DNA from: a bacterium
GTDB lineage: Bacteria > Patescibacteriota > Andersenbacteria > UBA10190
Assembly: GCA_027624555.1 (NCBI GenBank)
Contig: JAQBWN010000001.1
Location: 1-63,809 of the forward strand
Reading direction: 5' to 3'
Length of the DNA: 63,809 bases
How positions within the stretch are numbered: position 1 is the stretch's first letter; each line of letters begins with the position of its first letter. A program made the translations under genes and the position numbers. Of the stretch, positions 39,966 to 62,995 are shown in pieces. The notes beneath the pieces were generated by a model that saw only the letters and a list, made by a program, of their open reading frames with translations, was not told where the DNA came from and did not search any database.

Positions 39966-40340
39966 ATGAATTACGGTCGTTATAAATGGTCACATCTGTT
40001 TTTAAGCGCGGGCTTGGGGGCAGTATTTCTCTGGATAGGGGTAGACATGCTCAGGCACCAGGATGCATGGATCGGCTATCTTCCTGCAAACATACCACTT
40101 GGATTAAGTAGAGATACTGCGCTTAAACTCAACGGAATGTTTGATATCGCAATCGGTGCGTTATTAATCCTACGGTGGTGGCCCAAAATTACTGCATTCC
40201 TGGCCGCTGTTCATCTGATTGGTATTTTAGCAAGCCAAGGAATAGATGCTGTTATTATTCGCGATGTAGGGCTCCTAGGAGCTTCTCTCGCGCTTCTTAC
40301 GTGGCCCAAGCGTCACCGAAGAAGCCACGATGCCTCTTAA
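39966..40340 (+). CDS. Hypothetical membrane protein (DoxX-like topology)
   Basis: 124 aa from ATG 39966, 4 TM helices. The track ORF start (39912) lies inside tRNA-Pro. Confidence 0.5.
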   Translation: MNYGRYKWSHLFLSAGLGAVFLWIGVDMLRHQDAWIGYLPANIPLGLSRDTALKLNGMFDIAIGALLILRWWPKITAFLAAVHLIGILASQGIDAVIIRDVGLLGASLALLTWPKRHRRSHDAS

Positions 40341-41464: not shown

Positions 41465-41622
41465 TTGTCGCTTTTGTAAAATACCTTACTCCTTTTTTAG
41501 GGGCTTAAGGTTTGTTTTGCATGTTTATATGAGCTTTGTCAGAACCTACTGACACATAAATAGGAATTGTAGGGTAGTTGCAGGTATAGTCAAGCTTGAC
41601 ATTTTTAGGGTACAATGCCTCC

Positions 41623-43710
41623 ATGTCTAATGCCCTTACTGGTCTAAATGAGCAACAGCAGCAGGTTGTGCTCTCTACTCATGGGCCAGTTCTTGTACTT
41701 GCAGGGGCTGGTTCAGGCAAAACACGGGCCTTAACCCATCGTATTGCCCACTTCATAGAACAGCGTATTGCCACACCAGACCAGATACTAGCAGTTACGT
41801 TTACAAATAAAGCAGCTGCCGAAATGAGGCATCGTATCGGCCAGTTACTGGGCTCTTCATTTGCTTTACCTCGCAGCGTAAGCACATTTCATAGTCTGGG
41901 TGTAAAAATACTACGAGAACAATCTCATTTCCACAATCGTAGCCAAGGCTTTTCCATATTGGACTCAAAAGACTCCGAAAAGCTTGTTCGTAAAGCATTA
42001 AAAGATGCAAATTATTCGCTCAAGGAATGGAGCCCGAGCGCTGTTAAAAACATGATATCTCGTATTAAGCATGAGCAAGTAGACAACGTACTCAGTGGAT
42101 CCCCTGAAAATCCGCGAGAAGAAGTGCTTTTTGCTATTTTCCCCGTGTATGAAAAAATGCTTGCAGAGCATAATGCATACGATTTTGACGATTTATTGCG
42201 TATTCCGTTACATATTTTACGCTCACAGCCCACTGTGCGGTCACTATACCAAGCCAGGTGGCGATTCATCTCGGTAGACGAGTACCAAGATACGAACCCC
42301 ATGCAAGAAGAAATTATCTCCCACCTCATGAGTCAGGAGCAGAATATTTGCGTAGTAGGAGACGATTACCAATCTATTTACTCTTGGAGAGGTGCAAGTG
42401 TTGACCATATTCTCCAGTTTGAACAACGCCACATAGGATGCACCACAATTTTCCTCACTCAAAATTATCGCTCTACTCCGAACATTCTCGATGCCGCTAA
42501 CAATGTCATTGCGCTTAATGTAGACCAAAAACATAAGACGCTTTGGACAACTCAGGAAAGCGGAAGCGAGGTAAAAACCATGCGATTACCGTCAGATAGA
42601 GGAGAAGCGGAGTGGGTATGCAGTCAAATACGGGACCATGTACGTGATGGCGGAAAGCTTTCCGATTGTGCTGTTTTATATAGGACCAATGCACAGTCCC
42701 GCCTCATGGAAGAACAATTCCTTATGCACCGCATGCCCTACACCATAGTGGGGGGATTTCGATTCTACGACCGCAAAGAAATTAAGGACGCTTTAGCCAT
42801 ATTATCGTTCTATCTTTCTCCGTCCTCAAGAATCCACTTTGAACGAATCGCGGATGCACTCCTTACGCGCGTGGGGCCAAAAACCATCGATAAATGGGAC
42901 AACATAGCAAGAGAGCAGGGTATCTCGCTCGGACTGTATTTGTCTACAACCGAGCAACGAGCAGATCTGCGGGCAATTTTTAGTGCATATCGCGAGGCAA
43001 AGAGAAGCGAACATGAAAAAGTGTCAGACTTACTTCGTCTCCTTGTCACAAAAACAGGATATTTAGCATCCCTGGAAAATCTCCCGGACGGCAAAGAGCG
43101 AACAGAAAATATAAACGAACTTTTCAACGTAGCAGCCGCATACACAACAACTGAGGCATTTTTAGAAGACACCGCGCTGCTTTCTGACATCGATACGTTT
43201 GATAGAACGGATAGTCGAGTAACCTGCATGACGCTTCACGCCTCTAAAGGACTGGAATACCCAGTTGTGTTTATTATAGGGTGTGAAGAAGGCCTTTTAC
43301 CTCACGAAAACAGCCTTTCTTCATCTGCAAGCATTGAGGAAGAACGACGTCTTATGTACGTTGGAATGACGCGAGCAAGGGAACAATTAACCATCACGCA
43401 TGCGGCATATAGATTTAGGGGAGGGGAAATGACACCGCAGGCACCCTCTCGGTTCCTTGAACAACTTCCGCAAAGCACCGAAGGCTACAAAGAGAACACA
43501 TATAATACTCAGGAAAATTATTCAGACGATATTACCGATTTTTTACATGAAGAACCAACGCTCGTTCAACCAACTTCCGGATCGTACGTTACTCATCCAC
43601 AATTTGGGCGGGGAGTTATTATTGGTGCTTCCGGCGAAACAATTACGTGTGTGTTTGAAGGTCATGGGGTAAAAAATGTGGCGGTAAACTCCTGTTCGGT
43701 ACCAGCATGA
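41623..43710 (+). CDS. uvrD: ATP-dependent DNA helicase, UvrD/PcrA family
   Basis: 695 aa from ATG 41623. LNEQQQQVV, AGAGSGKT, VDEYQDTN, QNYRST, TLHASKGLEYPVVF, RRLMYVGMTRA. Confidence 0.93.
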   Translation: MSNALTGLNEQQQQVVLSTHGPVLVLAGAGSGKTRALTHRIAHFIEQRIATPDQILAVTFTNKAAAEMRHRIGQLLGSSFALPRSVSTFHSLGVKILREQSHFHNRSQGFSILDSKDSEKLVRKALKDANYSLKEWSPSAVKNMISRIKHEQVDNVLSGSPENPREEVLFAIFPVYEKMLAEHNAYDFDDLLRIPLHILRSQPTVRSLYQARWRFISVDEYQDTNPMQEEIISHLMSQEQNICVVGDDYQSIYSWRGASVDHILQFEQRHIGCTTIFLTQNYRSTPNILDAANNVIALNVDQKHKTLWTTQESGSEVKTMRLPSDRGEAEWVCSQIRDHVRDGGKLSDCAVLYRTNAQSRLMEEQFLMHRMPYTIVGGFRFYDRKEIKDALAILSFYLSPSSRIHFERIADALLTRVGPKTIDKWDNIAREQGISLGLYLSTTEQRADLRAIFSAYREAKRSEHEKVSDLLRLLVTKTGYLASLENLPDGKERTENINELFNVAAAYTTTEAFLEDTALLSDIDTFDRTDSRVTCMTLHASKGLEYPVVFIIGCEEGLLPHENSLSSSASIEEERRLMYVGMTRAREQLTITHAAYRFRGGEMTPQAPSRFLEQLPQSTEGYKENTYNTQENYSDDITDFLHEEPTLVQPTSGSYVTHPQFGRGVIIGASGETITCVFEGHGVKNVAVNSCSVPA

Positions 43711-44558
43711 TCCAGCCACTTACAAATCCAGACGTACTAAAAAGCGTTCTTGCTTCACATCAATTGCGAGCTGCAAAATCTATGGGCCAAAACTTTCTTA
43801 TCTGTGGAGAAGTTATAGATGCGGTATTAATGGGGCTATCTATTGGTCCCAAACATATTACAGAACTCGGACCGGGGCTCGGAACTCTAACACAAGGGCT
43901 GATAGGCTCTGGATACATTGTTAGGGGCATTGAAAAAGATGATGATTTTGTGCGCGTTCTACCAAAAATGGTTCCTCCTGCGTTCCGAAAAAATCTTACG
44001 GTAATTCATGGGGATTTATTGGAAGAAGACTGGCATTGGCCCTCGCAGGGCAGCGCGTCGGGTCAGGCTTATAGTCTCATCGGCAACATCCCTTATAACA
44101 TTTCAGGACTTATTATACGTCGCTTAACAAACATACAAGCAGTTCCTTCATTAGTCATATTATTAATGCAAAAAGAAGTTGCCGAAAGAATAGTTTATAC
44201 CGAAAATTCCATGAGTTTGCCCGGTCTTTCTGTTGGCTTGTGGGGCAATGCGGAATTGCTTTTACAAGTTCCTCCTTCATGCTTCATACCAGAGCCAGCC
44301 GTCAATTCTGCACTTATCCAAATACGCCCAAACGCGGATATGCTCTCGCTAGAGAAACGAGAAAAAATAATTGCATGTGCAAAACCCTTTTTTCAAGCCA
44401 AACGAAAACAAATCGCACATACATTGAAAAATTTCTATAGTAAAAATGCAAAAGAAATAGAATTTATTGCAAATAAACTCTCTATTTCACCATCTGCGCG
44501 CCCAGAAAACCTTTCCGTAGAAACCTGGACTGCCTTGTGTGATATACTGACCTTATGA
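43707..44558 (+). CDS. rsmA: 16S rRNA (adenine1518/1519-N6)-dimethyltransferase
   Basis: 283 aa. MGQNFL..., ELGPGLGTLT, GNIPYNIS. ATGA overlap with uvrD. Confidence 0.9.
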   Translation: MIQPLTNPDVLKSVLASHQLRAAKSMGQNFLICGEVIDAVLMGLSIGPKHITELGPGLGTLTQGLIGSGYIVRGIEKDDDFVRVLPKMVPPAFRKNLTVIHGDLLEEDWHWPSQGSASGQAYSLIGNIPYNISGLIIRRLTNIQAVPSLVILLMQKEVAERIVYTENSMSLPGLSVGLWGNAELLLQVPPSCFIPEPAVNSALIQIRPNADMLSLEKREKIIACAKPFFQAKRKQIAHTLKNFYSKNAKEIEFIANKLSISPSARPENLSVETWTALCDILTL

Positions 44559-45484
44559 CCCGCCGCGTCGTAATCGGCATTCTTATTATTCTTATACTTG
44601 GCGTCCTTGGAGGCATCGTCGCTCTTAGTATTTTTTGGCTGCAAACTCCCACGGAAGACATTGTAACAACGCCTACAATAATTCCCATCACTGACCCTAC
44701 AGCAGACTCAGACAATGATGGGCTTTCAAATGCAGATGAAAGAGTGTGGGGTACAGATCCGGCTGACGAAGACACTGATAAAGACGGGTATATAGACGGG
44801 GTAGAGGTACAAAAGGGCCATAACCCAACTATTGCCAGCCCAAACGACAAATTACCCCCCGGCTTTGCTCCTGGACAGAACGTAGCCCCCCTAGATCCGT
44901 CATCACCTTCAGTAACATCATTTGATTCATACTTTTCTGAATCGGTAGATGTGACGGGTGGAAGCAAGAATTTAACAGAAGAATATGCTCGCACGGTTCC
45001 AGATAACGACAAATCGGCTGTTACATTAAATGCGTTCGTTGCCATCCAGCCCATTAATACCGCACTTCCGGTTCTCGATGAAAGTCGGATTTCTATAACA
45101 CAAGATAGCTCGCCCGTAATCATTTCTCAATATTTAAATACAGCCGCAAATATAGAATCGATAGCAGATAAAGCTCGTATGACTATTGCACTTAATGATT
45201 TTTTTAAAAGTAAAAATGCATATGGTTTTACAACGCTTGCGGAAGCAATAAAAGCATCTCAATCCAGAATTATTGGGCTTTCAGTCCCTCAAGAGGCACT
45301 TGAATATCAAAAATTGCTTATTGGCTATACGGAGCTACTTTCAGGTACTTTAAACCAAATTGGCGCATACAAAGATGACCAACTAAAAGCACTTGTCGCG
45401 CTTCGTCAACTAGACGCTATAGATAGATTATATTTTCCCATTATTAGCAGGGAGCGTGAACGCCTCGCTGGCTTTTTAGAATAA
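44555..45484 (+). CDS. Membrane-anchored extracellular protein with thrombospondin type-3-like Ca-binding repeats (T4SS-like cluster)
   Basis: 309 aa. N-terminal TM, DSDNDGLSNADE...DTDKDGYIDG repeats. The C-terminal helical region is paralogous to the next ORF. ATGA overlap with rsmA. Confidence 0.55.
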   Translation: MTRRVVIGILIILILGVLGGIVALSIFWLQTPTEDIVTTPTIIPITDPTADSDNDGLSNADERVWGTDPADEDTDKDGYIDGVEVQKGHNPTIASPNDKLPPGFAPGQNVAPLDPSSPSVTSFDSYFSESVDVTGGSKNLTEEYARTVPDNDKSAVTLNAFVAIQPINTALPVLDESRISITQDSSPVIISQYLNTAANIESIADKARMTIALNDFFKSKNAYGFTTLAEAIKASQSRIIGLSVPQEALEYQKLLIGYTELLSGTLNQIGAYKDDQLKALVALRQLDAIDRLYFPIISRERERLAGFLE

Positions 45485-45489
45485 ACACT

Positions 45490-46275
45490 ATGCATACAAC
45501 GAACAAAGTAGGAATTCGTATAGCAGGGATAACGCTGGCTCTTGCACTAGCGATGTTTGGACTATCCAAAGCTGTTGCTTTTCTTGTTTCTCAAACTCCA
45601 GAGACGCCCGCAACAACACCTAATCCTACTTCAGCGCAAATAGTACAACCACCCAGCCCTGCAACCACCTTACCCCCAGAACTCCAGAAACAAATTTCGG
45701 CTTACAAAGAATCTGCGAACGAAACACTTGGCGAGTATACAAAAAAATATATCCAATCACTCCCAGCGGAAAGTGAAAAAAATGAGGTACTAGCGCCAAC
45801 TAAGGTAGAAGAATTTGTAAATACAAATAAAGAAGCTCTATTACCAGCACTGTTTGCAGGAACAGTGAAAACAACTACGGCCTCAGGCAAAGAAGCAATT
45901 GTGAAATACCTTGACGCAATAGCGCCATCGCATAACCCTGCAATTAAGCCAGTAACAGGAGAGATGATTTCTGCTGCTCTTATAAAGCAAGAAAGTGGGG
46001 AAGATATTCAAGCGCTAGCGCCTGTTCATGCCTCAATTGAGAGCAATTTTAACCTCTTTAAAAACGTACAAGCGCCAAAAGAAGCTGTTGAATTACACAC
46101 AAAACTCCTGCAAGCAACCCTTGCTCTTATGAACAACGTTACGTTACTGCAAAACATACAAAAAGATTTTGTAGGGGGACTTATCGGGCAGAAAAATCTT
46201 GCAGATTTAAATGCAGTGTTTACAGAAATTGGAACACAAATTCTTGCACTCGAAACCAAATACAACATCAAATAA
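45490..46275 (+). CDS. Membrane-anchored hypothetical protein, C-terminal paralog of 44555-45484
   Basis: 261 aa. N-terminal TM, Pro/Thr-rich linker. The C-terminal segment (QAPKEAVELHTKLLQATLALMNN...) aligns by eye with SVPQEALEYQKLLIGYTELLSGT... of the upstream ORF. Confidence 0.5.
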   Translation: MHTTNKVGIRIAGITLALALAMFGLSKAVAFLVSQTPETPATTPNPTSAQIVQPPSPATTLPPELQKQISAYKESANETLGEYTKKYIQSLPAESEKNEVLAPTKVEEFVNTNKEALLPALFAGTVKTTTASGKEAIVKYLDAIAPSHNPAIKPVTGEMISAALIKQESGEDIQALAPVHASIESNFNLFKNVQAPKEAVELHTKLLQATLALMNNVTLLQNIQKDFVGGLIGQKNLADLNAVFTEIGTQILALETKYNIK

Positions 46276-46299
46276 AACGTGCTATAATTTGAGGCAAGT

Positions 46300-47943
46300 A
46301 TGAGTCGTACTTTATCGCGTCCTTCGTATTATTTTCAGTATGCATTTCCTGCATTTGTTTTTGCTATTTGTTTTATATTATTTACGACGCAAACTCCATA
46401 CGCATCCGCAGATCCGCACGCAGTATTTTATACAGACAGAGCGCAAGAACAATTGTTCTACAACACTCTCGCCGCACTTAATCAGGCGGACTTTGTAGAA
46501 CCTCCTACGCTACAATCAGGACAATTCAGTAGAGAATCTCTTGTGGACTTGCGAGAAAGCACACTTCCAAGCCCGCTCCCAGGGCAAACTCCACTGCCGT
46601 TTAGCAGAGAACAAAACCCTACACTCAACGCAACTCGGACACAACTTCCCGGGATTATCGCAAGAAATATCACCCTCGAAGGGAATGACCTATGGACGGC
46701 CTATTTATTTCAGCAATTTGCGCTAGAAACGGACGTAAGAACGTCTTTAAGTAAATTAACACGCATCATCTGTACAGATGCACTTGGTCAAACAGGGTGT
46801 AACAACGAGCCCGGACCATCGCAAAATCAGTCAACGGCCTTTCCAACAGATATTAAAGAATACATCGGGCAAGATAATCTTCCTGTCGTTTCCAAGTTAT
46901 TCACACAAACAGAAAGTGAGAATAATTTTCAGGCAAAACTTACAGGAACGGATGGAGTTAATCCCGTACCCCTCAACCCAAACATCCCAGGTGGACCATC
47001 TCAACCAGGGCCATACACAACCGAACCAAAAATACCAGAGAGCTTAAAAGTGCCGCGTTCTAGTTCTGCTGAAATTGCCGCATTACACAACGACACTGAA
47101 AATAAGCCTGAAGCTCGCACGATATGGGAATCAGCAAGAAATAGCATCGTAGCATCGCTGTATAATACTGGGCTCGATTCAAAAATATTCTCGAAATTTA
47201 CACTTGCCGATAAAGGAGAGGTAACATACCCCGATGACGCTTCGTTTGATGACCACTTAGATATTCTCAGTGGTATAACGTCAATCCTCCCCGCATCTAT
47301 CGAGATTGCAGCGCGTGGCAAAGAAGAAGGCCTGGCGTTTAAACAATACCGTGAACAAACACCAGCTCTTGCAAAATACACGCTTACAAAAGAAGAGGGC
47401 GGCGGGGTAAAAGGTACTATCACGAACCCATCTACGGGTATTGAGGCTTTGATAAACACCGGCGCTCAACAGCTCGCAAACCAAACTATCAACCAAAATA
47501 TTTCTGGAACGCAGGAAATTACTAATCCTGGCAGGGTACCACTCTTACCAGTGGATCTTAGGCCCGAAGTTGCGGGTATATCGACAGAAAACGGTCCTCA
47601 AGGAGGACCTGGGGAAGTGGCTGGTATAGCTACCTTTGCTGTCGATATCGCAAGACTGTACAACACGTACTACAGTGACCCAAAGCCAAATCCAAACAGT
47701 CCAACTACAGGAGTTATTCCATATTTTGAAGAAAAAGGTCCTGATGAATTCCTCCAAGCCCTCGGCGCCACTCCCCCAAAATCTACAAAAAAAGTTGATT
47801 GTGGATTTTGCGTTTCTTTAGATGAAATTATAGCACCAGGTGGTGTAACCCAGACCATGAACGAAGTTTACTCAGACATGTATTGCTTCTTCTTCCCGAG
47901 AACGGCGGCGTGTGTAGCACGGCAAAACCCAGACTATGAATAA
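46300..47943 (+). CDS. Secreted hypothetical protein (547 aa)
   Basis: Signal/TM region at the N-terminus. No recognisable motif. The Cys-containing C-terminus overlaps the next gene by 8 nt. Confidence 0.5.
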   Translation: MSRTLSRPSYYFQYAFPAFVFAICFILFTTQTPYASADPHAVFYTDRAQEQLFYNTLAALNQADFVEPPTLQSGQFSRESLVDLRESTLPSPLPGQTPLPFSREQNPTLNATRTQLPGIIARNITLEGNDLWTAYLFQQFALETDVRTSLSKLTRIICTDALGQTGCNNEPGPSQNQSTAFPTDIKEYIGQDNLPVVSKLFTQTESENNFQAKLTGTDGVNPVPLNPNIPGGPSQPGPYTTEPKIPESLKVPRSSSAEIAALHNDTENKPEARTIWESARNSIVASLYNTGLDSKIFSKFTLADKGEVTYPDDASFDDHLDILSGITSILPASIEIAARGKEEGLAFKQYREQTPALAKYTLTKEEGGGVKGTITNPSTGIEALINTGAQQLANQTINQNISGTQEITNPGRVPLLPVDLRPEVAGISTENGPQGGPGEVAGIATFAVDIARLYNTYYSDPKPNPNSPTTGVIPYFEEKGPDEFLQALGATPPKSTKKVDCGFCVSLDEIIAPGGVTQTMNEVYSDMYCFFFPRTAACVARQNPDYE

Positions 47944-49888
47944 GAGTAAGCAATTATTTCTTATTTTCGCATTACTTGCGATGTTTGTTGCTCCATTTCA
48001 AGCATCTGCTCAACTACGTATCGTAAGTGCGGGTACAGCAATGCGCGTATCTGGTCAAAACGACGATTTCTTTAAAGACACAGCAAATTGTTCAGTAATA
48101 AAGGTAGTAAACAGCGATGACGAGGACGTACAATCACTCGACATACAACCCGAGCATCAAGACTTGCCTTTAGTAAGATTCACAAAAAACCTTACTTTTG
48201 GTGCTGCCATAACGTACTACGCATGTACAATAGAAGCTTTTGCGATAATACAAACTACGTATAATCCTGGAATATTAAATTCCATATCAGATACGCTTGT
48301 CAGCTTTTTTAAATATTTTATTGAATTAGTAAACGGACTCCTAACCTGGGTGCTTAAGTGGGCCGGGTACCTACTCATCGCCATGATTGGGCAGGGGAAG
48401 TTTATTACCAGCGACATCGTCACCCAAGCATGGCCGTTCGTGCAAGGGCTTGCAAACCTTGGATTCATATTCGCTCTTTTGTACATTGCCCTTGCCACCA
48501 CGCTTCGACTAGAATCCGTAAGTAGCTCAATACAACGGCTACTGCCAAGACTCCTCGTAGCGGCGCTGCTTGTAAATTTTAGCCTCGTCATTGGTGGCCT
48601 AATCATAGACGCGTCAAGACTCCTCATGGCTGCCGAAATTAGTATTATGGGTGGCGGTTCTTTAGATTATGAAAACTTCACTGCCGAATTAGTGAGGTCT
48701 TCAAACGCTTCAGCAACTATACTTTCCGGTTTACCACTCGTAGATACTAGCAATGCGTCTGCGGTAGTGCTTAAAATGATTCAAAGTGTTGTTTTTCTTG
48801 GGCTATTAACAGCTGCGATTTTTGTAATAGCTATAAATCTATTTATTCGCTATATTGCGCTCCTCATACTACTTATACTATCGCCCATAGCTTATCTTGC
48901 ACTTGCGTTGCCAAAAACCTCTCAGTACGCAACCCAGTGGTGGGGGATGTTTATAAAGTGGGTTTTATATGGACCGATTGTGCTCTTTTTCCTGATTATT
49001 ATTACTCGAATTCAAAACGTAGACATAGTATTAGCAGACACTGTAAGTGAAAATAAATTATTTACAGTATTCTTCAATCAATTTATTCATTTTGCGATTG
49101 TTATTGCGCTCTTCTTTGTTGCAAATAGCGTAGGTAAAAAAGTTGCTGGTGCAGGTTCAGACGCAGTTATGGGCTTTGCACAGAAAAATCCTCGAGCGGC
49201 GTTTATTGCTGGCACGTCACTTCTTACTGGCGGACTTGGTGGAGCAGCTGCTGTGGCGCTTTCGAGCAGAAGTGCTAGGGATGCATACAGTGGGGTTGGC
49301 AAAGGCCTTGCCACGAAAACTCGAGCAGGAGAATTGTTTGGCACAGGAGGTGTGCGAGGAGGCTTTAGCACTGCTGCTAAGTGGGCTCTGGGCGCAGAAC
49401 GTAACGAGAAAGGCGAACTTAAAGATGGAGAAAAATCGATTGGCTCTAGGCTCGTAGATAAAATTACTCCGCTTAAGCTTCAAGCCGCAGTTGCTGCATC
49501 TAAGGAAGCCGAGCGTATAGCAAATTTACCCGATCCAAACGAAGCAGGAATTGCATTACCAGAAAGAGTTAGAAGAACACGAGCTATTAGGACCGCATAC
49601 GACACAGCGGCTGCTCCTGGTGGCTCACTTGATCCTACAAAGCTTCTTAAGGGCAAAATTGCCGCTGAGATTTCTCCAAATGCGCTGGATAAGCTTGTTC
49701 GTAATTCAAAGAATGATTCGATGATTGATAATATCTTGGGGCATAAAGATGTCGTTGTAAATATGAAAAATGAAACAAAAGCGTATATCTTAGCAAATGG
49801 AAAGCCTCGCGACCCTCGAAAAGCTAAAGAAAATCGAGCAAGCAAGCTTGAGGGAAAGCTGCGCGACATAGGTCGAGATAAAAAATAA
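47936..49888 (+). CDS. Polytopic membrane protein, VirB6/TrbL-like candidate
   Basis: 650 aa. Signal peptide, at least 6 TM helices between about residues 130 and 400, and a hydrophilic Ala/Gly/Lys-rich C-terminal third. Position is upstream of the PrgI-like and VirB4 genes. Confidence 0.45.
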   Translation: MNKSKQLFLIFALLAMFVAPFQASAQLRIVSAGTAMRVSGQNDDFFKDTANCSVIKVVNSDDEDVQSLDIQPEHQDLPLVRFTKNLTFGAAITYYACTIEAFAIIQTTYNPGILNSISDTLVSFFKYFIELVNGLLTWVLKWAGYLLIAMIGQGKFITSDIVTQAWPFVQGLANLGFIFALLYIALATTLRLESVSSSIQRLLPRLLVAALLVNFSLVIGGLIIDASRLLMAAEISIMGGGSLDYENFTAELVRSSNASATILSGLPLVDTSNASAVVLKMIQSVVFLGLLTAAIFVIAINLFIRYIALLILLILSPIAYLALALPKTSQYATQWWGMFIKWVLYGPIVLFFLIIITRIQNVDIVLADTVSENKLFTVFFNQFIHFAIVIALFFVANSVGKKVAGAGSDAVMGFAQKNPRAAFIAGTSLLTGGLGGAAAVALSSRSARDAYSGVGKGLATKTRAGELFGTGGVRGGFSTAAKWALGAERNEKGELKDGEKSIGSRLVDKITPLKLQAAVAASKEAERIANLPDPNEAGIALPERVRRTRAIRTAYDTAAAPGGSLDPTKLLKGKIAAEISPNALDKLVRNSKNDSMIDNILGHKDVVVNMKNETKAYILANGKPRDPRKAKENRASKLEGKLRDIGRDKK

Positions 49889-49899
49889 TTATTAAACAT

Positions 49900-50676
49900 A
49901 TGGACACTTTTCAACTTTATCCAATCGGATCCATCCTAAGCAGACCCGAAGAAGCCACTCAAGGATATCTAGATATCGTCAGCTTATTACCTCAAAATAT
50001 AAAGGATATTCTTGCTGCTCCCAATTCCGCTGCTTTCGTCCTTGGCATTGTTAAAAGCTACAACATAAGTGAAGCTCAGGCGCCAAGTATTGCCTTTGAG
50101 ATTCTTGAGGTAGCTATTGGCAAGAAAACTTTTGCTCAGCTTTCGGGAGTTTTTGTTGCAGAACTTGGACTTGCACCCGATCAAGCTCAAAAAATGGCAC
50201 TAGAAATTGAGAAAGATATATTTGGGCCGATTAAGGGGGAATTGGATGAATTTTTGCGAGGGCAAAAGGGTAGCGAGACAACCCCGAGTATCGCTTCTCC
50301 CCAGCCTTCGCTAAAGCTTCGGCCGGCAGGCACCCCACCCAACCTCCCCTCAGTCAGCGGGAGAGGCGCGGCGCAACCTAACAATTTGCTAGACCTGAAA
50401 GAAATAGCTGCTGCGAAGAGGCAGGAGCAGTTGGCGGGGAAACCGACGCAAAAACAGTTACCTAAACGACAGGTGACAGCGCGGATTGCGCCTCCGCAAC
50501 AGCCACCTGCGCCACTCCCACCCCCTCCAACTCCCCCTCGGGCCCCACTTCGCCCGCTGGCTTCGAGGGGCGCAGCAGGGGGAGAGAACGCTACGACGCC
50601 TACGTTTCCCTTGCCAGCACGCACACCTCTACCAAAGCCGGCGGTTTCTCCGCTTGATTTTAGTAAGTATCAATAA
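49900..50676 (+). CDS. Hypothetical protein with a Pro-rich C-terminal half containing a family-B repeat
   Basis: 258 aa. No TM helices. The repeat at 50515-50597 is translated as ...PPPPTPPRAPLRPLASRGAAGGENATT... Confidence 0.5.
   Translation: MDTFQLYPIGSILSRPEEATQGYLDIVSLLPQNIKDILAAPNSAAFVLGIVKSYNISEAQAPSIAFEILEVAIGKKTFAQLSGVFVAELGLAPDQAQKMALEIEKDIFGPIKGELDEFLRGQKGSETTPSIASPQPSLKLRPAGTPPNLPSVSGRGAAQPNNLLDLKEIAAAKRQEQLAGKPTQKQLPKRQVTARIAPPQQPPAPLPPPPTPPRAPLRPLASRGAAGGENATTPTFPLPARTPLPKPAVSPLDFSKYQ
50515..50597. repeat. GC-rich palindromic repeat, family B (long form), in frame inside a CDS
   Basis: ctcccaccccctccaactccccctcggg + 33-nt extra module + cagggggagagaacgctacgac. The flanks match 26268-26315. 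Confidence 0.8.
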
Positions 50677-50684
50677 CTTTATCT

Positions 50685-51131
50685 ATGCGCTTTCAAGTAC
50701 CTCAATTTACCGATATAGAAGACAAAATAGTTGGGCCGTTTACGCTCAAACAGTTCTTAATATATGTAGTGGCCTGCATGTTGCTGGTTCCTGTATATAT
50801 TTATACAGACTTATCGCTCTTTATAACTATCGCGCTGCCTGTGCTCGGAGTTGCTGCAGCATTTGCTCACGTTAAAATCTACGGAAAATCGTTAAGCCAA
50901 GTTGTGTTTGCGGGGATATTCTATTTATCAAAAGGGCAGTTATACATTTGGCGCAGACAAAAAAACCAACCTTTTAAAATTGTAGACAGTGAGTGGAATG
51001 CAAATATGAGCGAAAAGGTAAATACATCACTTACACGGCCATCTTCTTCATTAAATGTTATTGCACAGTCACTTGAGACAACAGGGAACATCAGTAAAGA
51101 AGATATTCCAGACCCTCTCATGGTACAATAG
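50685..51131 (+). CDS. PrgI-family (VirB3-like) T4SS membrane protein
   Basis: 148 aa. N-terminus MRFQVPQFTDIEDKIVGPFTLKQFLIY followed by two TM helices, characteristic of PrgI-like proteins of Gram-positive/CPR T4SS loci. Confidence 0.55.
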   Translation: MRFQVPQFTDIEDKIVGPFTLKQFLIYVVACMLLVPVYIYTDLSLFITIALPVLGVAAAFAHVKIYGKSLSQVVFAGIFYLSKGQLYIWRRQKNQPFKIVDSEWNANMSEKVNTSLTRPSSSLNVIAQSLETTGNISKEDIPDPLMVQ

Positions 51132-51136
51132 AACGT

Positions 51137-51838
51137 ATGGCAATGTTTGACATGATGAGCCCCCCACTCAAAGGCAAGGCGAGTCAAAATTTAGTACATA
51201 TCTCTGAGTTACGCGATGGAATTGTTATACTGCAAGACGGTACAATGCGATGCGTCATGATGATATCTTCCGTAAACTTCGCATTAAAGTCCGAAGAAGA
51301 ACAAAATGCCATCATTTATGCGTATCAAGACTTTATCAACTCTCTCGATTTTCCTATTCAGCTTACTGTTTCATCAAGAAAAATGGATATCACACCATAC
51401 TTAGAAGAAGTAAAACATCTTCGTGATTTGCAAAAGAACGAATTGCTACATTTACAAATGACAGAATACATTAATTTTATATCCGAGCTCGTAAAAGGAA
51501 GTAATATTATGACAAAAACATTTTTTGTCACTATCCCTTTCTCTGCTTCACAAGATAAAAAAGAAGGATTTTTCTCACGTATCGGTAAAGGAGCAAAAGG
51601 GGCAGTAGGTAAGGGAAAAATGACTGATATCGAATTTGAGCACAACAAAACTCAAGTTACGCACCGCGTTGAACAAGTTGCAATTGGGCTGCGGGGCATT
51701 GGGCTGCGCGTGGTTCCGCTCAAAACGCAGGAGCTGTTGGAATTGTTCTATAACTACTTTAATCCGAACACATCTCGTAACCAACGCCTGCGCAATGTAG
51801 ATAAATTAACTATTCAAGAAACTGACGCACCGCTATGA
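51137..51838 (+). CDS. Soluble protein resembling the N-terminal (non-ATPase) domain of VirB4/TraC
   Basis: 233 aa. ...ISELRDGIVILQDGTMRCVMMISSVNFALKSEEEQNAII...FPIQLTVSSRKMDITPYLEEV... parallels the N-terminal layout of the downstream VirB4. No Walker motifs. ATGA overlap with the next gene. Confidence 0.45.
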   Translation: MAMFDMMSPPLKGKASQNLVHISELRDGIVILQDGTMRCVMMISSVNFALKSEEEQNAIIYAYQDFINSLDFPIQLTVSSRKMDITPYLEEVKHLRDLQKNELLHLQMTEYINFISELVKGSNIMTKTFFVTIPFSASQDKKEGFFSRIGKGAKGAVGKGKMTDIEFEHNKTQVTHRVEQVAIGLRGIGLRVVPLKTQELLELFYNYFNPNTSRNQRLRNVDKLTIQETDAPL

Positions 51839-53664
51839 GTATCTTTACTTCACTCTTTCCAAAGAAACCGAAAGAGCAAACACCTGCAAAAATTGATAAG
51901 GAATCTCAAAATATCATGCATCAATTTGATACAGGAGTTTCTTCACTTCGAGACATTCTTGCACCATCAGCTTTTAAAGTGAACACGAAATCAATTGAAA
52001 TCGACGGAAAATTTGCTACTACCATATACGTAACTACATATCCGAGGTATTTGGATACGAACTGGTTTGCTTCTATTGTTAATTTTGACGTTGAATTTGA
52101 TGTAGCAATGTTTATCTACCCACAAGATTCCGCAACTATTTTGAAAGAGCTACGAAAGCGAATAACCCAGGTATCTACATCTATTTCTATGCAGGCAGAG
52201 CAGGGCAAGGTAAGAGACCCTCAACTTGAAACTGCATACCAAGACATTGAAGAATTGCGAGACCGCCTTGTGCAAGGAACAGAGCGATTTTACCAGTATG
52301 GTTTATACATTACGGTATATGCCAACAGCGAAGAAGAATTGGACGATATATTATCTCAAGTAGAAGTACTCCTCGAGGGGCGCCTCATATATGCCAAGCC
52401 TGCACTCTTTCAAATGGAGCAAGGGTTTGACTCTACATTACCACTCGGACATGACACGCTCGTTGTAAACACTAATATGAATACGTCGCCACTTTCTACC
52501 AGCTTTCCATTTGTAAGCTCCGACCTCACGAGCAACTCTGGTGTTCTCTACGGAATTAATCTGCACAACAGTAGTCTCGTGCTGTTTGACCGGTTCAGTT
52601 TAGAAAATGCGAACATGGTTATCTTTGCAAAATCCGGTGCCGGAAAAAGCTACACGGTAAAGCTCGAGATTTTACGGAGCCTCATGTTTGGTACGGAAAT
52701 TATCGTCATCGACCCGGAACAAGAATACCGCTATTTAGCTGAAGCAGTAGGTGGGGCCTACCTGCAAATTGCCATTGCGTCAGACCATCGTATCAATCCG
52801 TTTGATTTACCAACACTCGGGGAAGACGAAAACCCAGAAGCAGTCCTGCGAGAAAATATCACCCGCCTTATCGGGCTTATATCTCTCATGGTAGAAGGGA
52901 TGACTGCGGAAGAGCAATCCATTGTCGATAATGCGCTTTGGGAAACGTATGCTTTAAAAGATATTACTCGCGGTGCGAAATGGGACAAGCCAGAAGTGCC
53001 AACGCTTCAGGACTTCTACAACATTACAAAAGATATGGAGGGCGGGAAGAACGTTGCAACCAGATTACAACGCTTCGTGGAAGGTACTTTTGCTGGGGTA
53101 TTTAACCGAGCAACGAACATAGACCTCGACCAACAGCTCATTGTGTTCAATATTCGAGATATGGAAGAAGAGCTTCGCCCGATTGCCATGTATGTAGTAC
53201 TTGGTTTTATTTGGAATAGGATACGAAGCCAGCTCAAGCGACGAATCCTCGTGGTGGATGAAGCTTGGATTATGATGCGCAATGAGGAATCTGCGAAGTT
53301 CTTATTCTCAATGGCAAAACGTGCCCGTAAATACTATCTCGGCGTTACCACTATTACCCAAGATATTTCTGACTTCCTGGGGTCTAAATACGGAAAGCCC
53401 ATAGTAACAAACTCGTCTATTCAATTGCTCTTACGTCAATCTCCCGCGGCAATTGATGCTCTTTCGGAACTGTTTTACCTCACCGACCATGAAAAGTTCC
53501 GCTTACTCGAAAGCGACGTAGGGGAGGGTATCTTTTTTGCTGGATTAAAACACGTGGCGATTAAAGTAGTTGCAAGCTATGCGGAAGACCAGGTGATAAC
53601 ATCGGATCCGCAGCAAATTTTGGCAATTGAAGCGGCGAAGAAAGAATTGAGTAATAATGCATAG
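51835..53664 (+). CDS. VirB4/TrbE/PrgJ-family T4SS ATPase
   Basis: 609 aa. Typical N-domain (YVTTYPRYLDTNW...QGKVRDPQLETAYQDIEELRD), Walker A AKSGAGKSY, Walker B ILVVDEAW, ITQDISDF. Confidence 0.85.
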   Translation: MSIFTSLFPKKPKEQTPAKIDKESQNIMHQFDTGVSSLRDILAPSAFKVNTKSIEIDGKFATTIYVTTYPRYLDTNWFASIVNFDVEFDVAMFIYPQDSATILKELRKRITQVSTSISMQAEQGKVRDPQLETAYQDIEELRDRLVQGTERFYQYGLYITVYANSEEELDDILSQVEVLLEGRLIYAKPALFQMEQGFDSTLPLGHDTLVVNTNMNTSPLSTSFPFVSSDLTSNSGVLYGINLHNSSLVLFDRFSLENANMVIFAKSGAGKSYTVKLEILRSLMFGTEIIVIDPEQEYRYLAEAVGGAYLQIAIASDHRINPFDLPTLGEDENPEAVLRENITRLIGLISLMVEGMTAEEQSIVDNALWETYALKDITRGAKWDKPEVPTLQDFYNITKDMEGGKNVATRLQRFVEGTFAGVFNRATNIDLDQQLIVFNIRDMEEELRPIAMYVVLGFIWNRIRSQLKRRILVVDEAWIMMRNEESAKFLFSMAKRARKYYLGVTTITQDISDFLGSKYGKPIVTNSSIQLLLRQSPAAIDALSELFYLTDHEKFRLLESDVGEGIFFAGLKHVAIKVVASYAEDQVITSDPQQILAIEAAKKELSNNA

Positions 53665-53666
53665 AG

Positions 53667-54125
53667 ATGACAGAGCAACAGGAAAGGGAGCAGCAAGTTG
53701 CATTAAACGCTAAGAGAAATCGTAAATTCCAACAAGATTTTCGTGGAGACTTGCTTAAAGCTAGGCAAGACACTAAAGAAGAGGAAGAAATTCCCCAAGA
53801 ATCAATTCAAAAAAGAAGATTAAACATATTAAAAGCGGGTGCTATTAAAGAAGCAAATGCAAGGACTGGCGGAGCCGTAGGCGCTAGTGTGGGGGGTGCG
53901 GTGGGTTCTATTATTCCGTTTATTGGTACTGGTATTGGGGCGTTTTTGGGGCGTTTTGTAGGAAAAAAATTAGGAATTACCGGATTTATTCTTATCGCGC
54001 TCCTCGCAATTGCGTTCCAAGCTATTCTATTTATTCTCGTAGTAAAAGGGTATTGTGATAGCTTAGGGTATATTGGACAAGCAGCAGATTATTTAACCGT
54101 TGGCATATGTCAAAATTTCAAATAA
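53667..54125 (+). CDS. Hypothetical membrane protein (T4SS-like cluster)
   Basis: 152 aa. Charged N-terminus, Gly-rich TM (GGAVGASVGGAVGSIIPFIGTGIGAFLG) and a second TM. Confidence 0.5.
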   Translation: MTEQQEREQQVALNAKRNRKFQQDFRGDLLKARQDTKEEEEIPQESIQKRRLNILKAGAIKEANARTGGAVGASVGGAVGSIIPFIGTGIGAFLGRFVGKKLGITGFILIALLAIAFQAILFILVVKGYCDSLGYIGQAADYLTVGICQNFK

Positions 54126-54883
54126 TTTTTTTAGGTTTCTTCATCACTTTTCTTGCCAATGGCTCTGCGTTGCCTGCATTTGCACAAATGGGTCCGGAAG
54201 GAGACCCTTTTAAAGATCCGGCAGGGTTTGGGAAATTCGAAGTTGGCTTACCTGGAATACCTAAAGATACATTTATTGCGGACTTTGTAAGCGGAGAAAA
54301 ACCAATTTTGGATTTTATAAATCTTGCAGTGAACGCCGTAATTGCAGTACTCGTGATAATTGGCCTTATTACGATAGTTATTGGCGGATATATTTATATG
54401 ACGGCGTCCGGTGATGCTTCTCGGGTTAAAACGGCGAAAGAAATGATAATAGCTGCACTTGCCGGCATATTTCTTTCTCTTGTTTCCGTTATTATCCTCA
54501 ATACAATTAATTCATATCTCGGTAGTGGTGCCGAAGAACCTAAGCTAGGCGAGCCATCAAACGGGTCAACACCAGGTGGAGGAGGCGGAAGTGGCGGTTC
54601 AAGCGGCGGTGGTTCCGGTGGAGGTGGTGGCGAGCTACCTGATGGTGGTGGAAACACGGGCGGGGGCTCAGGGATCGGTAATGGCGGTAATAATGACAAT
54701 ACCCAACCTTCACTCGATCAACTGGATCGGCTGCGTACTATTACAGTAGGTGAGATTGTTGTTTTACAAAACGAGCTTGAAAACATAAACCTTACCTCGG
54801 AGCAGAAAGCACTCTACACTGCAAATTTGACCGACGCGCAAAACAGATTAGCTGAATTTAATCGACAATTAGCTGTTCCTTAG
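54107..54883 (+). CDS. VirB2/TrbC-like T4SS pilin candidate with a long Gly-rich C-terminal extension
   Basis: 258 aa. Signal peptide (...ALPAFAQ), two TM helices flanking a short charged loop (YMTASGDASRVKTAKEMIIAALAGIF), then GGGGSGGSSGGGSGGGGG and a helical tail. Confidence 0.5.
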   Translation: MSKFQIIFLGFFITFLANGSALPAFAQMGPEGDPFKDPAGFGKFEVGLPGIPKDTFIADFVSGEKPILDFINLAVNAVIAVLVIIGLITIVIGGYIYMTASGDASRVKTAKEMIIAALAGIFLSLVSVIILNTINSYLGSGAEEPKLGEPSNGSTPGGGGGSGGSSGGGSGGGGGELPDGGGNTGGGSGIGNGGNNDNTQPSLDQLDRLRTITVGEIVVLQNELENINLTSEQKALYTANLTDAQNRLAEFNRQLAVP

Positions 54884-58847: not shown

Positions 58848-58886
58848 TATGCGTATTCTTAAGTTTTTTTCCTATACTGAGCCATT

Positions 58887-62884: not shown

Positions 62885-62928
62885 GAGATGATGATGACGT
62901 ATTCACCTCCTCAAGTCAAGTATTTATC

Positions 62929-62995
62929 TTGTCCACATCTTATTAACATATTTTCCACATATTGATACACAACGGACTTCCATAGCTGTGGATAA
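62929..62995. promoter_or_regulatory. DnaA-box cluster in the rpmH-dnaA intergenic region (oriC / dnaA promoter candidate)
   Basis: ttgtccaca (62929-62937), ttttccaca (62951-62959), and the perfect box tgtggataa (62987-62995, i.e. TTATCCACA on the minus strand). Confidence 0.7.

What the first reader, a model, noticed from the sequence alone, without database searches (positions are those of the whole stretch)
44555..54883. Ten-gene T4SS-like / pilus-like cluster without relaxase or coupling protein, translationally fused to rsmA
**Seen in sequence:** ten same-strand genes have minimal or overlapping junctions, and the first overlaps rsmA by ATGA. In order they are:
- a TM-anchored protein with thrombospondin-type Ca-binding repeats
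- its paralog
- a 547-aa secreted protein
- a 650-aa polytopic VirB6-like protein
- a Pro-rich soluble protein
- a PrgI/VirB3-like protein
- a VirB4 N-domain-like protein
- a VirB4 ATPase with Walker A and B motifs
- a small Gly-rich membrane protein
- a VirB2-like pilin candidate

No relaxase, VirD4-type coupling ATPase, VirB11, integrase or oriT-like feature is visible in the window.

**Established knowledge:** VirB4, VirB3, VirB6 and pilin are the minimal conserved core of Gram-positive-type T4SS. Similar loci have been noted in CPR genomes.

**Inference:** this is a chromosomal, non-conjugative apparatus (attachment, host-cell interaction or uptake pilus). At least five of its components have no recognisable family.
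Basis: partly seen in the sequence, partly recalled or inferred. Interest (0 to 1): 0.62.

Follow-up and report, generated by a model that had tools for sequence, protein, structure and literature searches.

The report
Chromosomal type IV secretion cluster, Patescibacteria type
The ten genes are real and encode the chromosomal, relaxase-less type IV secretion/pilus system already described across the ultra-small Patescibacteria (CPR) bacteria; this is one more example of it, from a Candidatus Andersenbacteria genome, 8 kb from dnaA, the replication initiator gene.

Summary
Ten + strand ORFs sit exactly at the stated coordinates, with junctions of -19 to +24 nt, and uvrD-rsmA-gene 1 are joined by ATGA overlaps. 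Family assignments are confirmed:
- TSP3 repeats in g1.
- g2 is a true paralog of g1 (hhalign E 4.8e-24).
- g4 is VirB6-like.
- g6 is PrgI/VirB3.
- g7 plus g8 form a split VirB4: a TrsD-like N-domain protein plus an ATPase with Walker A and B.
- g10 is a T4SS_pilin-type pilin.
- g3, g5 and g9 match no family.

No relaxase, coupling protein, VirB11 or integrase lies anywhere in the window, which is a whole contig of housekeeping genes ending in rpmH-dnaA.

The core g4-g5-g6-g7-g8 is syntenic in 54-80 of 80 fetched Patescibacteria loci, often with the same uvrD/rsmA neighbours. It is therefore vertically inherited, not a mobile element.

The system is already published (Quinonero-Coronel 2025; Wang 2023), including TrsD, the pilins, the missing relaxase and the ksgA/rnpA/dnaA neighbourhood.

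Small additions here:
- g5 is a conserved cytoplasmic component of unknown fold.
- g3 and g9 were found only in the closer (largely Andersenbacteria-labelled) loci.
- The ATPase module is far more conserved than the envelope module.

Function (host-contact pilus or conduit) remains inferred.

Verdict: a new member of a known kind, of modest interest.

The parts
41596..43710 (+). uvrD/pcrA-type helicase. First gene of the co-directional string; overlaps rsmA by ATGA. A conserved neighbour, not a T4SS part.
   Evidence: Pfam UvrD-helicase 1.6e-82. Junction. The UvrD-RsmA-cluster order recurs in the closest loci and in Paceibacterota-labelled loci.
43707..44558 (+). rsmA/ksgA 16S rRNA dimethyltransferase. 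Its stop overlaps the g1 start (ATGA).
   Evidence: Pfam RrnaAD 3.2e-34. Junction. KsgA is reported as a frequent virB4 neighbour in PMC12102498.
44555..45484 (+). g1: N-terminally membrane-anchored protein with calcium-binding TSP3 repeats and a C-terminal domain of unknown family.
   Evidence: TSP3_bac 3e-9, 37 bits against a cut-off of 25. TM segment at residues 1-32. The profile search against PDB matched only the Ca-repeat segment. Orthologs.
45490..46275 (+). g2: paralog of g1 that has lost the TSP3 repeats in this genome.
   Evidence: hhalign of the g1 family against the g2 family: probability 99.6%, E 4.8e-24. The profiles cross-hit at 1e-40 to 1e-60. Many g2 orthologs keep DxDxDG motifs.
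46300..47943 (+). g3: 547-aa exported or anchored protein with conserved Cys pairs. Found only in the closer (largely Andersenbacteria-labelled) loci; unknown family.
   Evidence: 44 homologs, none with a Pfam domain. Present in 17 of 80 loci. No Pfam, NCBIfam or PDB match. AF2 model poor, pLDDT 53.
47936..49888 (+). g4: extended VirB6-like polytopic membrane protein, with signal peptide, N-terminal external domain, TM bundle at about 167-404 and a 245-aa hydrophilic C-terminal tail.
   Evidence: Its own TrbL/VirB6 hit is weak: E 0.009, 16.2 bits against a cut-off of 25.9. 6 of 45 orthologs hit TrbL/VirB6, best 3.4e-10. The family profile's top PDB hit is TrwI (R388 VirB6), E 0.0018. Present in 56 of 80 loci.
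49900..50676 (+). g5: cytoplasmic protein with a conserved all-helical N-domain (residues 1-125) and a variable Pro-rich tail. Conserved between VirB6 and VirB3 across lineages; function unknown.
   Evidence: Present in 54 of 80 loci, always between g4 and g6. No TM segment or signal peptide in orthologs. 698 cluster representatives at E<=1e-3. AF2 pLDDT about 90 for residues 1-125. No fold match in PDB, best E 0.8. No sequence match in PDB.
50685..51131 (+). g6: PrgI/VirB3-like small membrane protein.
   Evidence: Pfam PrgI 6.3e-8, 33.5 bits against a cut-off of 27. TM hairpin at residues 15-65. Present in 65 of 80 loci.
51137..51838 (+). g7: TrsD-like protein, that is, the first part of the VirB4 N-terminal domain encoded as a separate gene.
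   Evidence: Matches CD1110 VirB4 model positions 4-140 (4.4e-9) and TrsD/TraD NF041427 (2.8e-5). 37 of 37 orthologs hit a VirB4 N-terminus and 35 of 37 hit TrsD. A separate ORF in 75 of 80 loci; inverted together with g6 in L012.
51835..53664 (+). g8: VirB4 ATPase, covering the rest of the N-domain plus the P-loop C-domain.
   Evidence: NF045971 CD1110 family 1.4e-113, 380.7 bits against a cut-off of 325, positions 183-733. Pfam P-loop_TraG and CagE_TrbE_VirB. PDB 4AG5 6.9e-46 and TrwK 6e-11. Walker A at residue 265 and Walker B at residue 471.
53667..54125 (+). g9: small membrane protein with a charged cytoplasmic N-terminus, a Gly-zipper and a TM helix. Found only in the closer (largely Andersenbacteria-labelled) loci; unknown family.
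   Evidence: Only sub-threshold Gly-zipper hits. Present in 11 of 80 loci. Alignment. Not related to the pilin family.
54107..54883 (+). g10: VirB2-like T4SS pilin domain (signal peptide, two TM helices, basic loop), followed by a Gly/Ser-rich linker and a C-terminal helical tail.
   Evidence: Its own PF18895 hit is 4e-5, 24.1 bits against a cut-off of 26.6. The Mbov_0395 pilin-like model gives 5.2e-6. 43 of 50 orthologs hit PF18895, best 5e-18. Present in 47 of 80 loci.
40337..41464 (-). LysM + M23 peptidase: a possible cell-wall hydrolase partner (VirB1 analogue). The association is only positional.
   Evidence: Pfam Peptidase_M23 3.5e-36 and LysM 1.4e-18. In about 20 Moranbacteria-type loci its homolog sits directly upstream of g4 on the same strand. 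PMC12102498 notes M23/LysM-containing VirB1-like proteins.

Best explanation
This is the Patescibacteria-clade type IV secretion system, a chromosomal, vertically inherited derivative of the monoderm (MPF-FATA) conjugation machinery that has lost the DNA-processing half.

**Shown.** The cytoplasmic-membrane engine is present: a VirB6-like channel protein (g4), PrgI/VirB3 (g6), and a VirB4 ATPase split into a TrsD-like piece (g7) and the ATPase proper (g8). A VirB2-like pilin (g10) is also present. The genes form one co-directional, tightly packed string behind uvrD and rsmA, 8 kb from dnaA. The core order is conserved in many Patescibacteria species.

**Inferred.**
- The string is co-transcribed with the housekeeping genes and expressed constitutively.
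- VirB4 powers assembly of a pilus or tube built of g10.
- g1, g2, g3 and g9 are lineage-specific envelope or surface parts, and g5 is a cytoplasmic accessory.
- By analogy with the homologous system that is essential for epibiotic growth of Southlakia epibionticum, the machine mediates contact with a host cell and moves macromolecules across that contact. The direction of transport is unknown.
For: - **Gene identities:**
- **Organism:** the fetched relatives are uncultured Patescibacteria MAGs. The closest loci (74-97% VirB4 identity) carry mixed database titles, about half 'Candidatus Andersenbacteria' and half 'uncultured Candidatus Saccharibacteria'; named g3 homologs are Andersenbacteria.
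- **Relatives:** 454 relatives were found in Patescibacteria-type MAGs, and the 80 kept are 57-97% identical. The best plasmid VirB4s, from Actinobacteria and Firmicutes, are only 30-38% identical.
- **Synteny:** g4-g5-g6-g7-g8 are present in 56, 54, 65, 75 and 80 of 80 loci respectively. uvrD-rsmA lies upstream in the closest loci and in Paceibacterota-labelled loci. Wzy/GT2 lies downstream in the closest loci.
- **Chromosomal setting:** there are no mobile-element genes in the 64-kb contig, and the right end is jag-yidC-rnpA-rpmH-dnaA. GC is even and there are no flanking repeats.
- **Selection:** purifying selection acts on all comparable genes. g6-g8 are 93-98% identical to the nearest relative, against 82% for RsmA.
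- **Literature:** PMC12102498 describes the same clade, TrsD, VirB3, VirB6, VirB2-like pilins, missing relaxases and the dnaA/rnpA/ksgA/rpmH neighbourhood. PMC10633639 shows that the Saccharibacteria homolog, pilins included, is essential for epibiotic growth. Tubular structures at a parasite-host interface, possibly T4SS pili, are reported in 10.64898/2026.06.21.733656.
Against: - No direct evidence of expression or of a pilus exists for this organism; no RNA runs were found.
- Promoter and terminator scans are at chance level, so the operon structure is not shown.
- The g4 and g10 sequences themselves fall just below the Pfam cut-offs and lean on their orthologs.
- No VirB8-like or VirB1-like component was identified in the cluster.
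- A coupling protein elsewhere in the genome cannot be excluded.
- The functional analogy comes from a different class (Saccharimonadia), whose locus differs in make-up (pilin array, peptidase and lysozyme downstream).
Confidence: 0.85

Rival explanations
1. An integrative conjugative element, or its decayed remnant. On this reading the cluster is mobile DNA whose relaxase, coupling protein and integrase lie outside the window or have been lost recently.
For: VirB4 belongs to a family named for conjugative transfer (CD1110 family), and the nearest non-Patescibacteria relatives sit on plasmids. A tyrosine recombinase lies 2 kb upstream of the cluster in one Moranbacteria locus, L055; by its size and domains it looks XerC/D-like.
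Against: - The same gene order and the same housekeeping neighbours recur across dozens of species and several lineages.
- The contig runs from clpP to dnaA with no mobile-element gene.
- There is no GC shift and there are no flanking repeats.
- Purifying selection is strong; VirB4 is more conserved than UvrD or RsmA.
- PMC12102498 reports relaxases in only 103 genomes of a 3,035-genome dataset, in which 2,417 assemblies carry a VirB4 homolog.
Confidence: 0.03
2. An uptake machine: a T4SS run in reverse to import host DNA, RNA or other macromolecules, as in Helicobacter ComB or the archaeal Ced system. It would feed an organism that cannot make nucleotides. This is a functional sub-hypothesis of the best explanation, not a different structure.
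For: - No relaxase or T4CP lies nearby, as in ComB.
- There is a weak hit to the CedB DNA-import ATPase, 1.2e-12.
- The literature proposes uptake for the Patescibacteria T4SS, because competence (ComEC) is dispensable while the T4SS is essential (PMC11665869, PMC12857230).
- Host-RNA feeding, with tubes at the interface, is reported.
Against: The CedB score is 47 bits against a cut-off of 700, and far below the conjugative VirB4 models. No nucleic-acid-binding or nuclease domain was found in any of the ten proteins. The direction of transport cannot be read from sequence.
Confidence: 0.3
3. An effector-export or attachment pilus. The machine would secrete proteins into or onto the host cell, or serve only as an adhesive fibre.
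For: The pilin gene is present. Fast-evolving exported proteins (g1, g2, g3) sit beside it, with g3 33-41% identical where VirB4 is 90-94% identical; this is the pattern expected for host-contact surfaces. Wang 2023 favours protein export or an alternative role.
Against: No recognisable effector, toxin or adhesin domain was found apart from the Ca-binding repeats. No T4CP was found to recruit substrates. Type IV pili are already credited with adhesion in Saccharibacteria.
Confidence: 0.35
4. A degraded, non-functional locus, in which the VirB4 gene is broken by a frameshift at 51835-51838.
For: VirB4 is in two ORFs overlapping by ATGA. Together they cover one VirB4 model: positions 4-140 and 183-733.
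Against: - The split is present in 75 of 80 loci, with variable spacing, and in L012 g7 lies on the other strand.
- dN/dS is 0.012 for g7 and 0.017 for g8.
- The same split (TrsD + TrsE) exists in pGO1-type conjugative plasmids, and TrsD is the most frequent T4SS component reported in Patescibacteria.
Confidence: 0.01

Closest known systems
Patescibacteria-clade T4SS (Quinonero-Coronel et al. 2025, Microb Genom, PMC12102498), exemplified by the essential SEML1_0006-0019 locus of Southlakia epibionticum (Wang et al. 2023, Cell, PMC10633639)
   Same: - VirB4 of MPF-FATA ancestry, with a separate TrsD-like gene next to it.
- PrgI/VirB3, VirB6-like and VirB2-like pilin genes nearby.
- No relaxase or T4CP nearby.
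- Chromosomal, close to dnaA/rnpA/rpmH/ksgA.
   Different: - The window has one pilin gene, with a long Gly-rich and helical tail, rather than the array of 6 pilins in Southlakia.
- No peptidase or lysozyme lies directly downstream of virB4; a LysM-M23 peptidase lies 3 kb upstream on the other strand.
- g1, g2, g3 and g9 are accessory proteins found here only in the closer (largely Andersenbacteria-labelled) loci.
- Membership of the VirB4 clade was not tested by a tree.
pGO1/pSK41 and pIP501-type Gram-positive conjugative T4SS (MPF-FATA subclass with TrsD + TrsE)
   Same: Split VirB4 (TrsD-like protein plus ATPase), a VirB3-like small membrane protein, and a monoderm architecture without outer-membrane core proteins.
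   Different: Those systems are plasmid-borne, carry a relaxase and a T4CP, transfer DNA and have no VirB2-type pilin. According to PMC12102498 the pGO1 subclass lacks a VirB6 homolog, whereas this cluster has one.
Helicobacter pylori ComB and archaeal Ced DNA-import systems
   Same: VirB4-family ATPase with membrane partners, no relaxase and no coupling protein. These are precedents for an inward-working T4SS.
   Different: ComB is a diderm system with VirB7-10. CedB scores only 47 bits here against a cut-off of 700. No evidence for DNA import exists in this case.
Mycoplasma ICE T4SS (Mbov_0397 VirB4, Mbov_0395 pilin-like protein)
   Same: g8 and g7 hit the Mbov_0397 model (1e-85 for g8; 37 of 37 g7 orthologs). 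g10 hits the Mbov_0395 pilin-like model (5.2e-6).
   Different: All scores are below the family cut-offs (288 against 590; 26 against 40). Those systems are parts of mobile ICEs.

Membership tests
Type IV secretion system (VirB4-based) | VirB4-family ATPase with Walker A and B motifs | tested here: met
   NF045971 380.7 bits against a cut-off of 325. PF19044 and PF03135 above their cut-offs. PDB 4AG5 at 6.9e-46. Motifs at residues 265 and 471.
Type IV secretion system (VirB4-based) | VirB3/PrgI-like membrane partner next to VirB4 | tested here: met
   g6 scores 33.5 bits on PF12666 PrgI against a cut-off of 27. It is adjacent to g7 and g8.
Type IV secretion system (VirB4-based) | VirB6-like polytopic channel protein | tested here: inconclusive
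   g4 itself scores 16.2 bits against a cut-off of 25.9. 6 of 45 orthologs hit TrbL/VirB6, best 3.4e-10. The family profile hits TrwI at E 0.0018. This is supportive, but it rests on the orthologs.
Type IV secretion system (VirB4-based) | VirB8-like bitopic protein (NTF2-like fold) | tested here: not met
   No sequence match in any of the ten proteins. PMC12102498 also finds VirB8 homologs rare in Patescibacteria.
Patescibacteria-clade T4SS | VirB4 falls in the monophyletic Patescibacteria clade nested in MPF-FATA | not tested
   No tree was built. Indirect evidence: the 80 kept relatives from Patescibacteria-type MAGs are 57-97% identical, against at most 38% for plasmid VirB4s from monoderms.
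Patescibacteria-clade T4SS | Separate TrsD-like gene associated with virB4 | tested here: met
   g7. A separate ORF in 75 of 80 loci.
Patescibacteria-clade T4SS | VirB2-like pilin gene near virB4 | tested here: met
   g10 itself scores 24.1 bits against a cut-off of 26.6. 43 of 50 orthologs hit PF18895, best 5e-18.
Patescibacteria-clade T4SS | Chromosomal, no relaxase nearby, often near dnaA/rnpA/rpmH/ksgA | tested here: met
   The cluster ends 8.1 kb from dnaA, and rsmA/ksgA overlaps g1.
Conjugative element (ICE or plasmid T4SS) | Relaxase (MOB) and oriT | tested here: not met
   No relaxase domain in any window ORF scanned. oriT cannot be recognised from sequence alone.
Conjugative element (ICE or plasmid T4SS) | VirD4/TcpA-type coupling protein | tested here: not met
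   None in the 64-kb contig; the P-loop proteins are listed. The rest of the genome was not available.
Conjugative element (ICE or plasmid T4SS) | Integrase and flanking direct repeats, variable insertion site | tested here: not met
   No integrase. Only short chance repeats. The position is conserved across species.
Ced / ComB DNA-import systems | CedB-type ATPase or the ComB gene set; demonstrated DNA import | tested here: not met
   CedB model 47 bits against a cut-off of 700. No VirB7, VirB9 or VirB10 homologs. Import activity is not testable with these tools.

The most novel reading that the evidence does not exclude
The cluster may build a pilus-like conduit that works inward, pulling host nucleic acids or other macromolecules into a cell that cannot make them. 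The conserved cytoplasmic protein g5 (no known fold, always between VirB6 and VirB3) would take the place of the missing coupling protein as the cytoplasmic adaptor. The convergent Wzy_C/glycosyltransferase genes would decorate the Gly/Ser-rich tail of the pilin. The evidence excludes none of this and demonstrates none of it. The uptake idea is already speculated in the literature; the roles suggested for g5 and for the Wzy_C genes are my own conjecture.
Probability: 0.12. Interest if true: 0.85.

Novelty: new member of a known kind. Interest (0 to 1): 0.3.

Why it matters
The Patescibacteria T4SS is one of the few machines known to be essential for the epibiotic life of these very abundant, mostly uncultivated bacteria. 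A 2024 perspective calls its role 'completely unknown' (PMC11665869).

This window does not change that picture. It is a clean, complete example from a second lineage (most likely Candidatus Andersenbacteria), and it contributes three things:
- It shows which parts are universal (VirB6-like, g5, VirB3, TrsD, VirB4, pilin) and which were seen only in the closer loci (g3, g9).
- It flags g5 as an unannotated, conserved cytoplasmic component that deserves a test.
- It shows a sharp contrast between an ultra-conserved ATPase module and fast-evolving envelope parts, which is the pattern expected if the outer parts track host surfaces.

Tried and rejected
- **AF2 of g3** with a 40-sequence alignment gave pLDDT 53. 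That is too poor for a fold search, so none was run.
- **AF2 of the g5 N-domain** was confident, but Foldseek against PDB gave nothing better than E 0.8. The profile search against PDB sequences also gave nothing.
- **The search for homologous proteins for g5** found only 8 relatives. Repeating it with a 50-sequence alignment added one marginal hit. The exhaustive representative search was needed to see the family.
- **Profile searches of the g1, g3 and g10 families against PDB sequences** found nothing, apart from the Ca-repeat segment of g1.
- **g9 as a second pilin** was rejected: hhalign against the g10 family gives 2% probability.
- **Promoter and terminator scans** were at the chance level.
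- **RNA-seq runs:** none available. Only DNA metagenomes hold the sequence, so the operon structure could not be tested.
- **Flanking repeats and GC shift** as signs of an island: none.
- **Frameshifted VirB4** was rejected on conservation.

Full report
**1. The observation.**
- Their junctions are -4, +5, +24, -8, +11, +8, +5, -4, +2 and -19 nt. The rsmA stop and the g1 start share ATGA, as do uvrD/rsmA and g7/g8.
- The co-directional string therefore starts at uvrD (41596) and runs 13.3 kb to 54883. Two Wzy_C genes then converge on it from the other strand.
- The ORFs are real genes. Against the nearest relative (L025), dN/dS is 0.012-0.28 for the nine genes that could be compared. dS is above 1, so these values are rough.

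**2. What each gene is.**
- **g1** has bacterial TSP3 calcium-binding repeats above the Pfam cut-off and an N-terminal TM anchor.
- **g2** is its paralog. Pairwise BLAST is marginal (E 0.03). Family profiles match at E 4.8e-24 with 99.6% probability, and the iterated profiles cross-hit at 1e-40 to 1e-60. The window's g2 has lost the repeats that many g2 orthologs keep.
- **g3** is a 547-aa exported or anchored protein with invariant Cys residues. It has 44 homologs and no Pfam, NCBIfam or PDB match.
- **g4** is a polytopic protein. Its own TrbL/VirB6 hit is sub-threshold, but 6 of 45 orthologs hit that family (best 3.4e-10). The family profile's best solved-structure hit is TrwI, the VirB6 of R388 (E 0.0018). 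It has the layout of an 'extended VirB6', with a 245-aa hydrophilic tail.
- **g5** has no TM segment or signal peptide in any ortholog. It has a conserved N-domain of about 125 residues and a variable Pro-rich tail.
- **g6** is PrgI/VirB3, above the cut-off.
- **g7 and g8** together are one VirB4. g7 covers model positions 4-140 and g8 covers positions 183-733 of the CD1110 family model, which g8 passes on its own (380.7 bits against 325). g8 matches the solved VirB4 C-domain 4AG5 at 6.9e-46 and TrwK at 6e-11. It has Walker A AKSGAGKS and Walker B ILVVDE. g7 also matches the TrsD/TraD family, as do 35 of 37 orthologs.
- **g9** is a small Gly-zipper membrane protein unrelated to the pilin family.
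- **g10** has a signal peptide, two hydrophobic helices joined by a basic loop, then a Gly/Ser-rich linker and a helical tail. Its own T4SS_pilin score is just under the cut-off (24.1 bits against 26.6), but 43 of 50 orthologs hit the family, best 5e-18.

**3. Context in the window.** The window equals a whole contig (the longest contig on record for its proteins is 63809 bases).
- Every other sizeable ORF is housekeeping or envelope biosynthesis: ClpP, RNase Y, FtsH, an ABC/MacB system, RNase III, TrmD, IF2, the rRNA operon, YmdB, LysM-M23, UvrD and RsmA upstream; two Wzy_C proteins, glycosyltransferases, a flippase, Jag, YidC, RnpA, L34 and then DnaA downstream.
- No relaxase, T4CP, VirB11 or integrase is present. 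The only P-loop proteins are the ABC ATPase, FtsH, IF2, UvrD, VirB4 and DnaA.
- GC is even, and there are no flanking repeats beyond short chance matches.
- The cluster ends 8.1 kb from dnaA.

**4. Relatives.** A scan of one genome per species found 454 loci encoding a relative of g8; the 80 best were fetched.
- All 80 are uncultured MAGs of the Patescibacteria type. The closest loci (74-97% identity) carry mixed database titles, about half 'Candidatus Andersenbacteria' and half 'uncultured Candidatus Saccharibacteria'. More distant loci (57-64%) are titled Moranbacteria, Paceibacterota or Parcubacteria, or carry automatic labels such as 'uncultured Bdellovibrionales'. I take the window to be Andersenbacteria because the named close relatives and the named g3 homologs say so. 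No marker-gene taxonomy was run.
- BLAST and iterated profile searches over these loci found g8 in 80 loci, g7 in 75, g6 in 65, g4 in 56, g5 in 54 and a g10-type pilin in 47. The order g4-g5-g6-g7-g8 is almost always kept.
- g3 (17 loci) and g9 (11 loci) occur only in the closer loci. g1/g2-type proteins occur there and in some Moranbacteria-labelled loci.
- uvrD-rsmA lies upstream in the closest loci and again in Paceibacterota-labelled loci. In Moranbacteria-type loci the order is uvrD, LysM-M23, then g4. The Wzy_C/GT2 genes downstream are conserved in the closest loci.
- g7 and g8 are separate genes nearly everywhere, sometimes with a gap or another gene between them, and in L012 g6-g7 are inverted. 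The split is therefore ancestral, not a frameshift.
- The best plasmid-borne VirB4s, from Actinobacteria and Firmicutes, are only 30-38% identical.
- Together these results make a recent mobile-element origin very unlikely.

**5. What is already known.** The system is published.
- Quinonero-Coronel et al. 2025 (PMC12102498) found VirB4 in 2,417 of 3,035 Patescibacteria genomes, mostly in one clade nested in MPF-FATA.
- They report TrsD as the most frequent partner, along with VirB3/PrgI, VirB6 and VirB2-like pilins near virB4, and relaxases in only 103 genomes.
- They also report virB4 neighbourhoods rich in DnaA, DnaN, RnpA, KsgA and RpmH. The window reproduces each of these points.
- Wang et al. 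2023 (PMC10633639) showed by Tn-seq that the homologous locus, pilins included, is essential for epibiotic growth of Southlakia epibionticum. They noted the lack of a relaxase and a coupling protein.
- Reviews discuss effector delivery or uptake of host molecules through a pilus-like conduit (PMC12857230, PMC11665869). A 2026 preprint shows tubes at a parasite-host interface that may be T4SS pili.

**6. Mechanism.**
- *Shown:* a monoderm-type inner-membrane T4SS engine plus a pilin gene, chromosomal, conserved and under strong purifying selection.
- *Inferred:* co-transcription with uvrD/rsmA; VirB4-driven assembly of a g10 fibre or tube; g1, g2, g3 and g9 as envelope or surface accessories; g5 as a cytoplasmic accessory; a role at the contact with a host cell.
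- The direction of transport (export of effectors or import of host macromolecules) cannot be decided from sequence. I rate the two at similar odds.

**7. What this window adds.**
- g5 is a conserved component without annotation. Its N-domain family has 698 cluster representatives at E<=1e-3 in 1.84 billion proteins. The domain folds confidently as an all-helical structure (pLDDT about 90) and has no structural or sequence match in PDB.
- Evolutionary rates differ sharply within the cluster. Against L001, VirB4 is 94% identical, TrsD 88% and VirB3 81%, while UvrD is 79%, RsmA 65%, g4 41% and g3 33%.
- A LysM-M23 peptidase is a recurrent neighbour and a candidate VirB1 analogue.
- These are increments, not a new kind of system.

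**8. Verdict.** It is a new member of a known kind. The interest is modest: the class is biologically important and its function is still open, but this instance makes nothing newly testable beyond nominating g5.

Noticed in passing
window 4048-4345: A tRNA gene is interrupted by a group I intron (Rfam RF00028, 54.8 bits, hit 4029-4311). ARAGORN misses it on the genomic sequence. Joining U4079 to G4302 gives a 73-nt tRNA-Phe(GAA); the 5' exon ends in U and the intron ends in G, as group I introns require.
   Followed up: partly
window 23522-35030: The rRNA operon is interrupted. tRNA-Ile, a CCA-adding enzyme, tRNA-Ala, a phosphoribosyltransferase, an MscS-like protein and two unknown ORFs lie between the 16S and 23S genes. 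The 23S gene spans 3439 nt against a 2925-nt model and carries a group I intron at 33383-33641.
   Followed up: no
window 12998-13070 (-): A tRNA-Ile with anticodon UAU, which is unusual in bacteria; they normally read AUA with a lysidine-modified CAU tRNA.
   Followed up: no
window 62747-63809: rpmH (62747-62884, - strand) is followed by dnaA (from about 63000 on the + strand, cut by the contig end). The contig therefore ends at the replication origin region, 8.1 kb beyond the T4SS cluster.
   Followed up: yes
window 54858-61222 (-): Two Wzy_C (O-antigen ligase family) genes, a GT2, an unknown 289-aa gene, another GT2 and a Wzx-like flippase converge on the pilin gene. The arrangement is conserved in the closest loci, and Wzy_C genes also follow g10-like genes in some Moranbacteria loci. 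A link to glycosylation of the pilin's Gly/Ser-rich tail is pure conjecture.
   Followed up: partly
window 18435-21035 and 22135-23292: An 866-aa ORF and a 385-aa ORF have no Pfam match at E<=1e-4.
   Followed up: no
L055 11847-15884 and 2372-3352: In a Moranbacteria relative, virB4 is followed by a 173-aa unknown protein, a CPBP/Rce1-like intramembrane protease and a 930-aa protein with no Pfam hit, which the iterated g1 profile matched. A XerC/D-like tyrosine recombinase lies upstream, on the opposite strand.
   Followed up: partly
window 50685-53664 versus 46300-50676: Evolutionary rates differ strongly within the cluster. VirB3, TrsD and VirB4 are 93-98% identical to the nearest relative (L025), while g4, g5 and g9 are 55-61% and RsmA is 82%.
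   Followed up: partly
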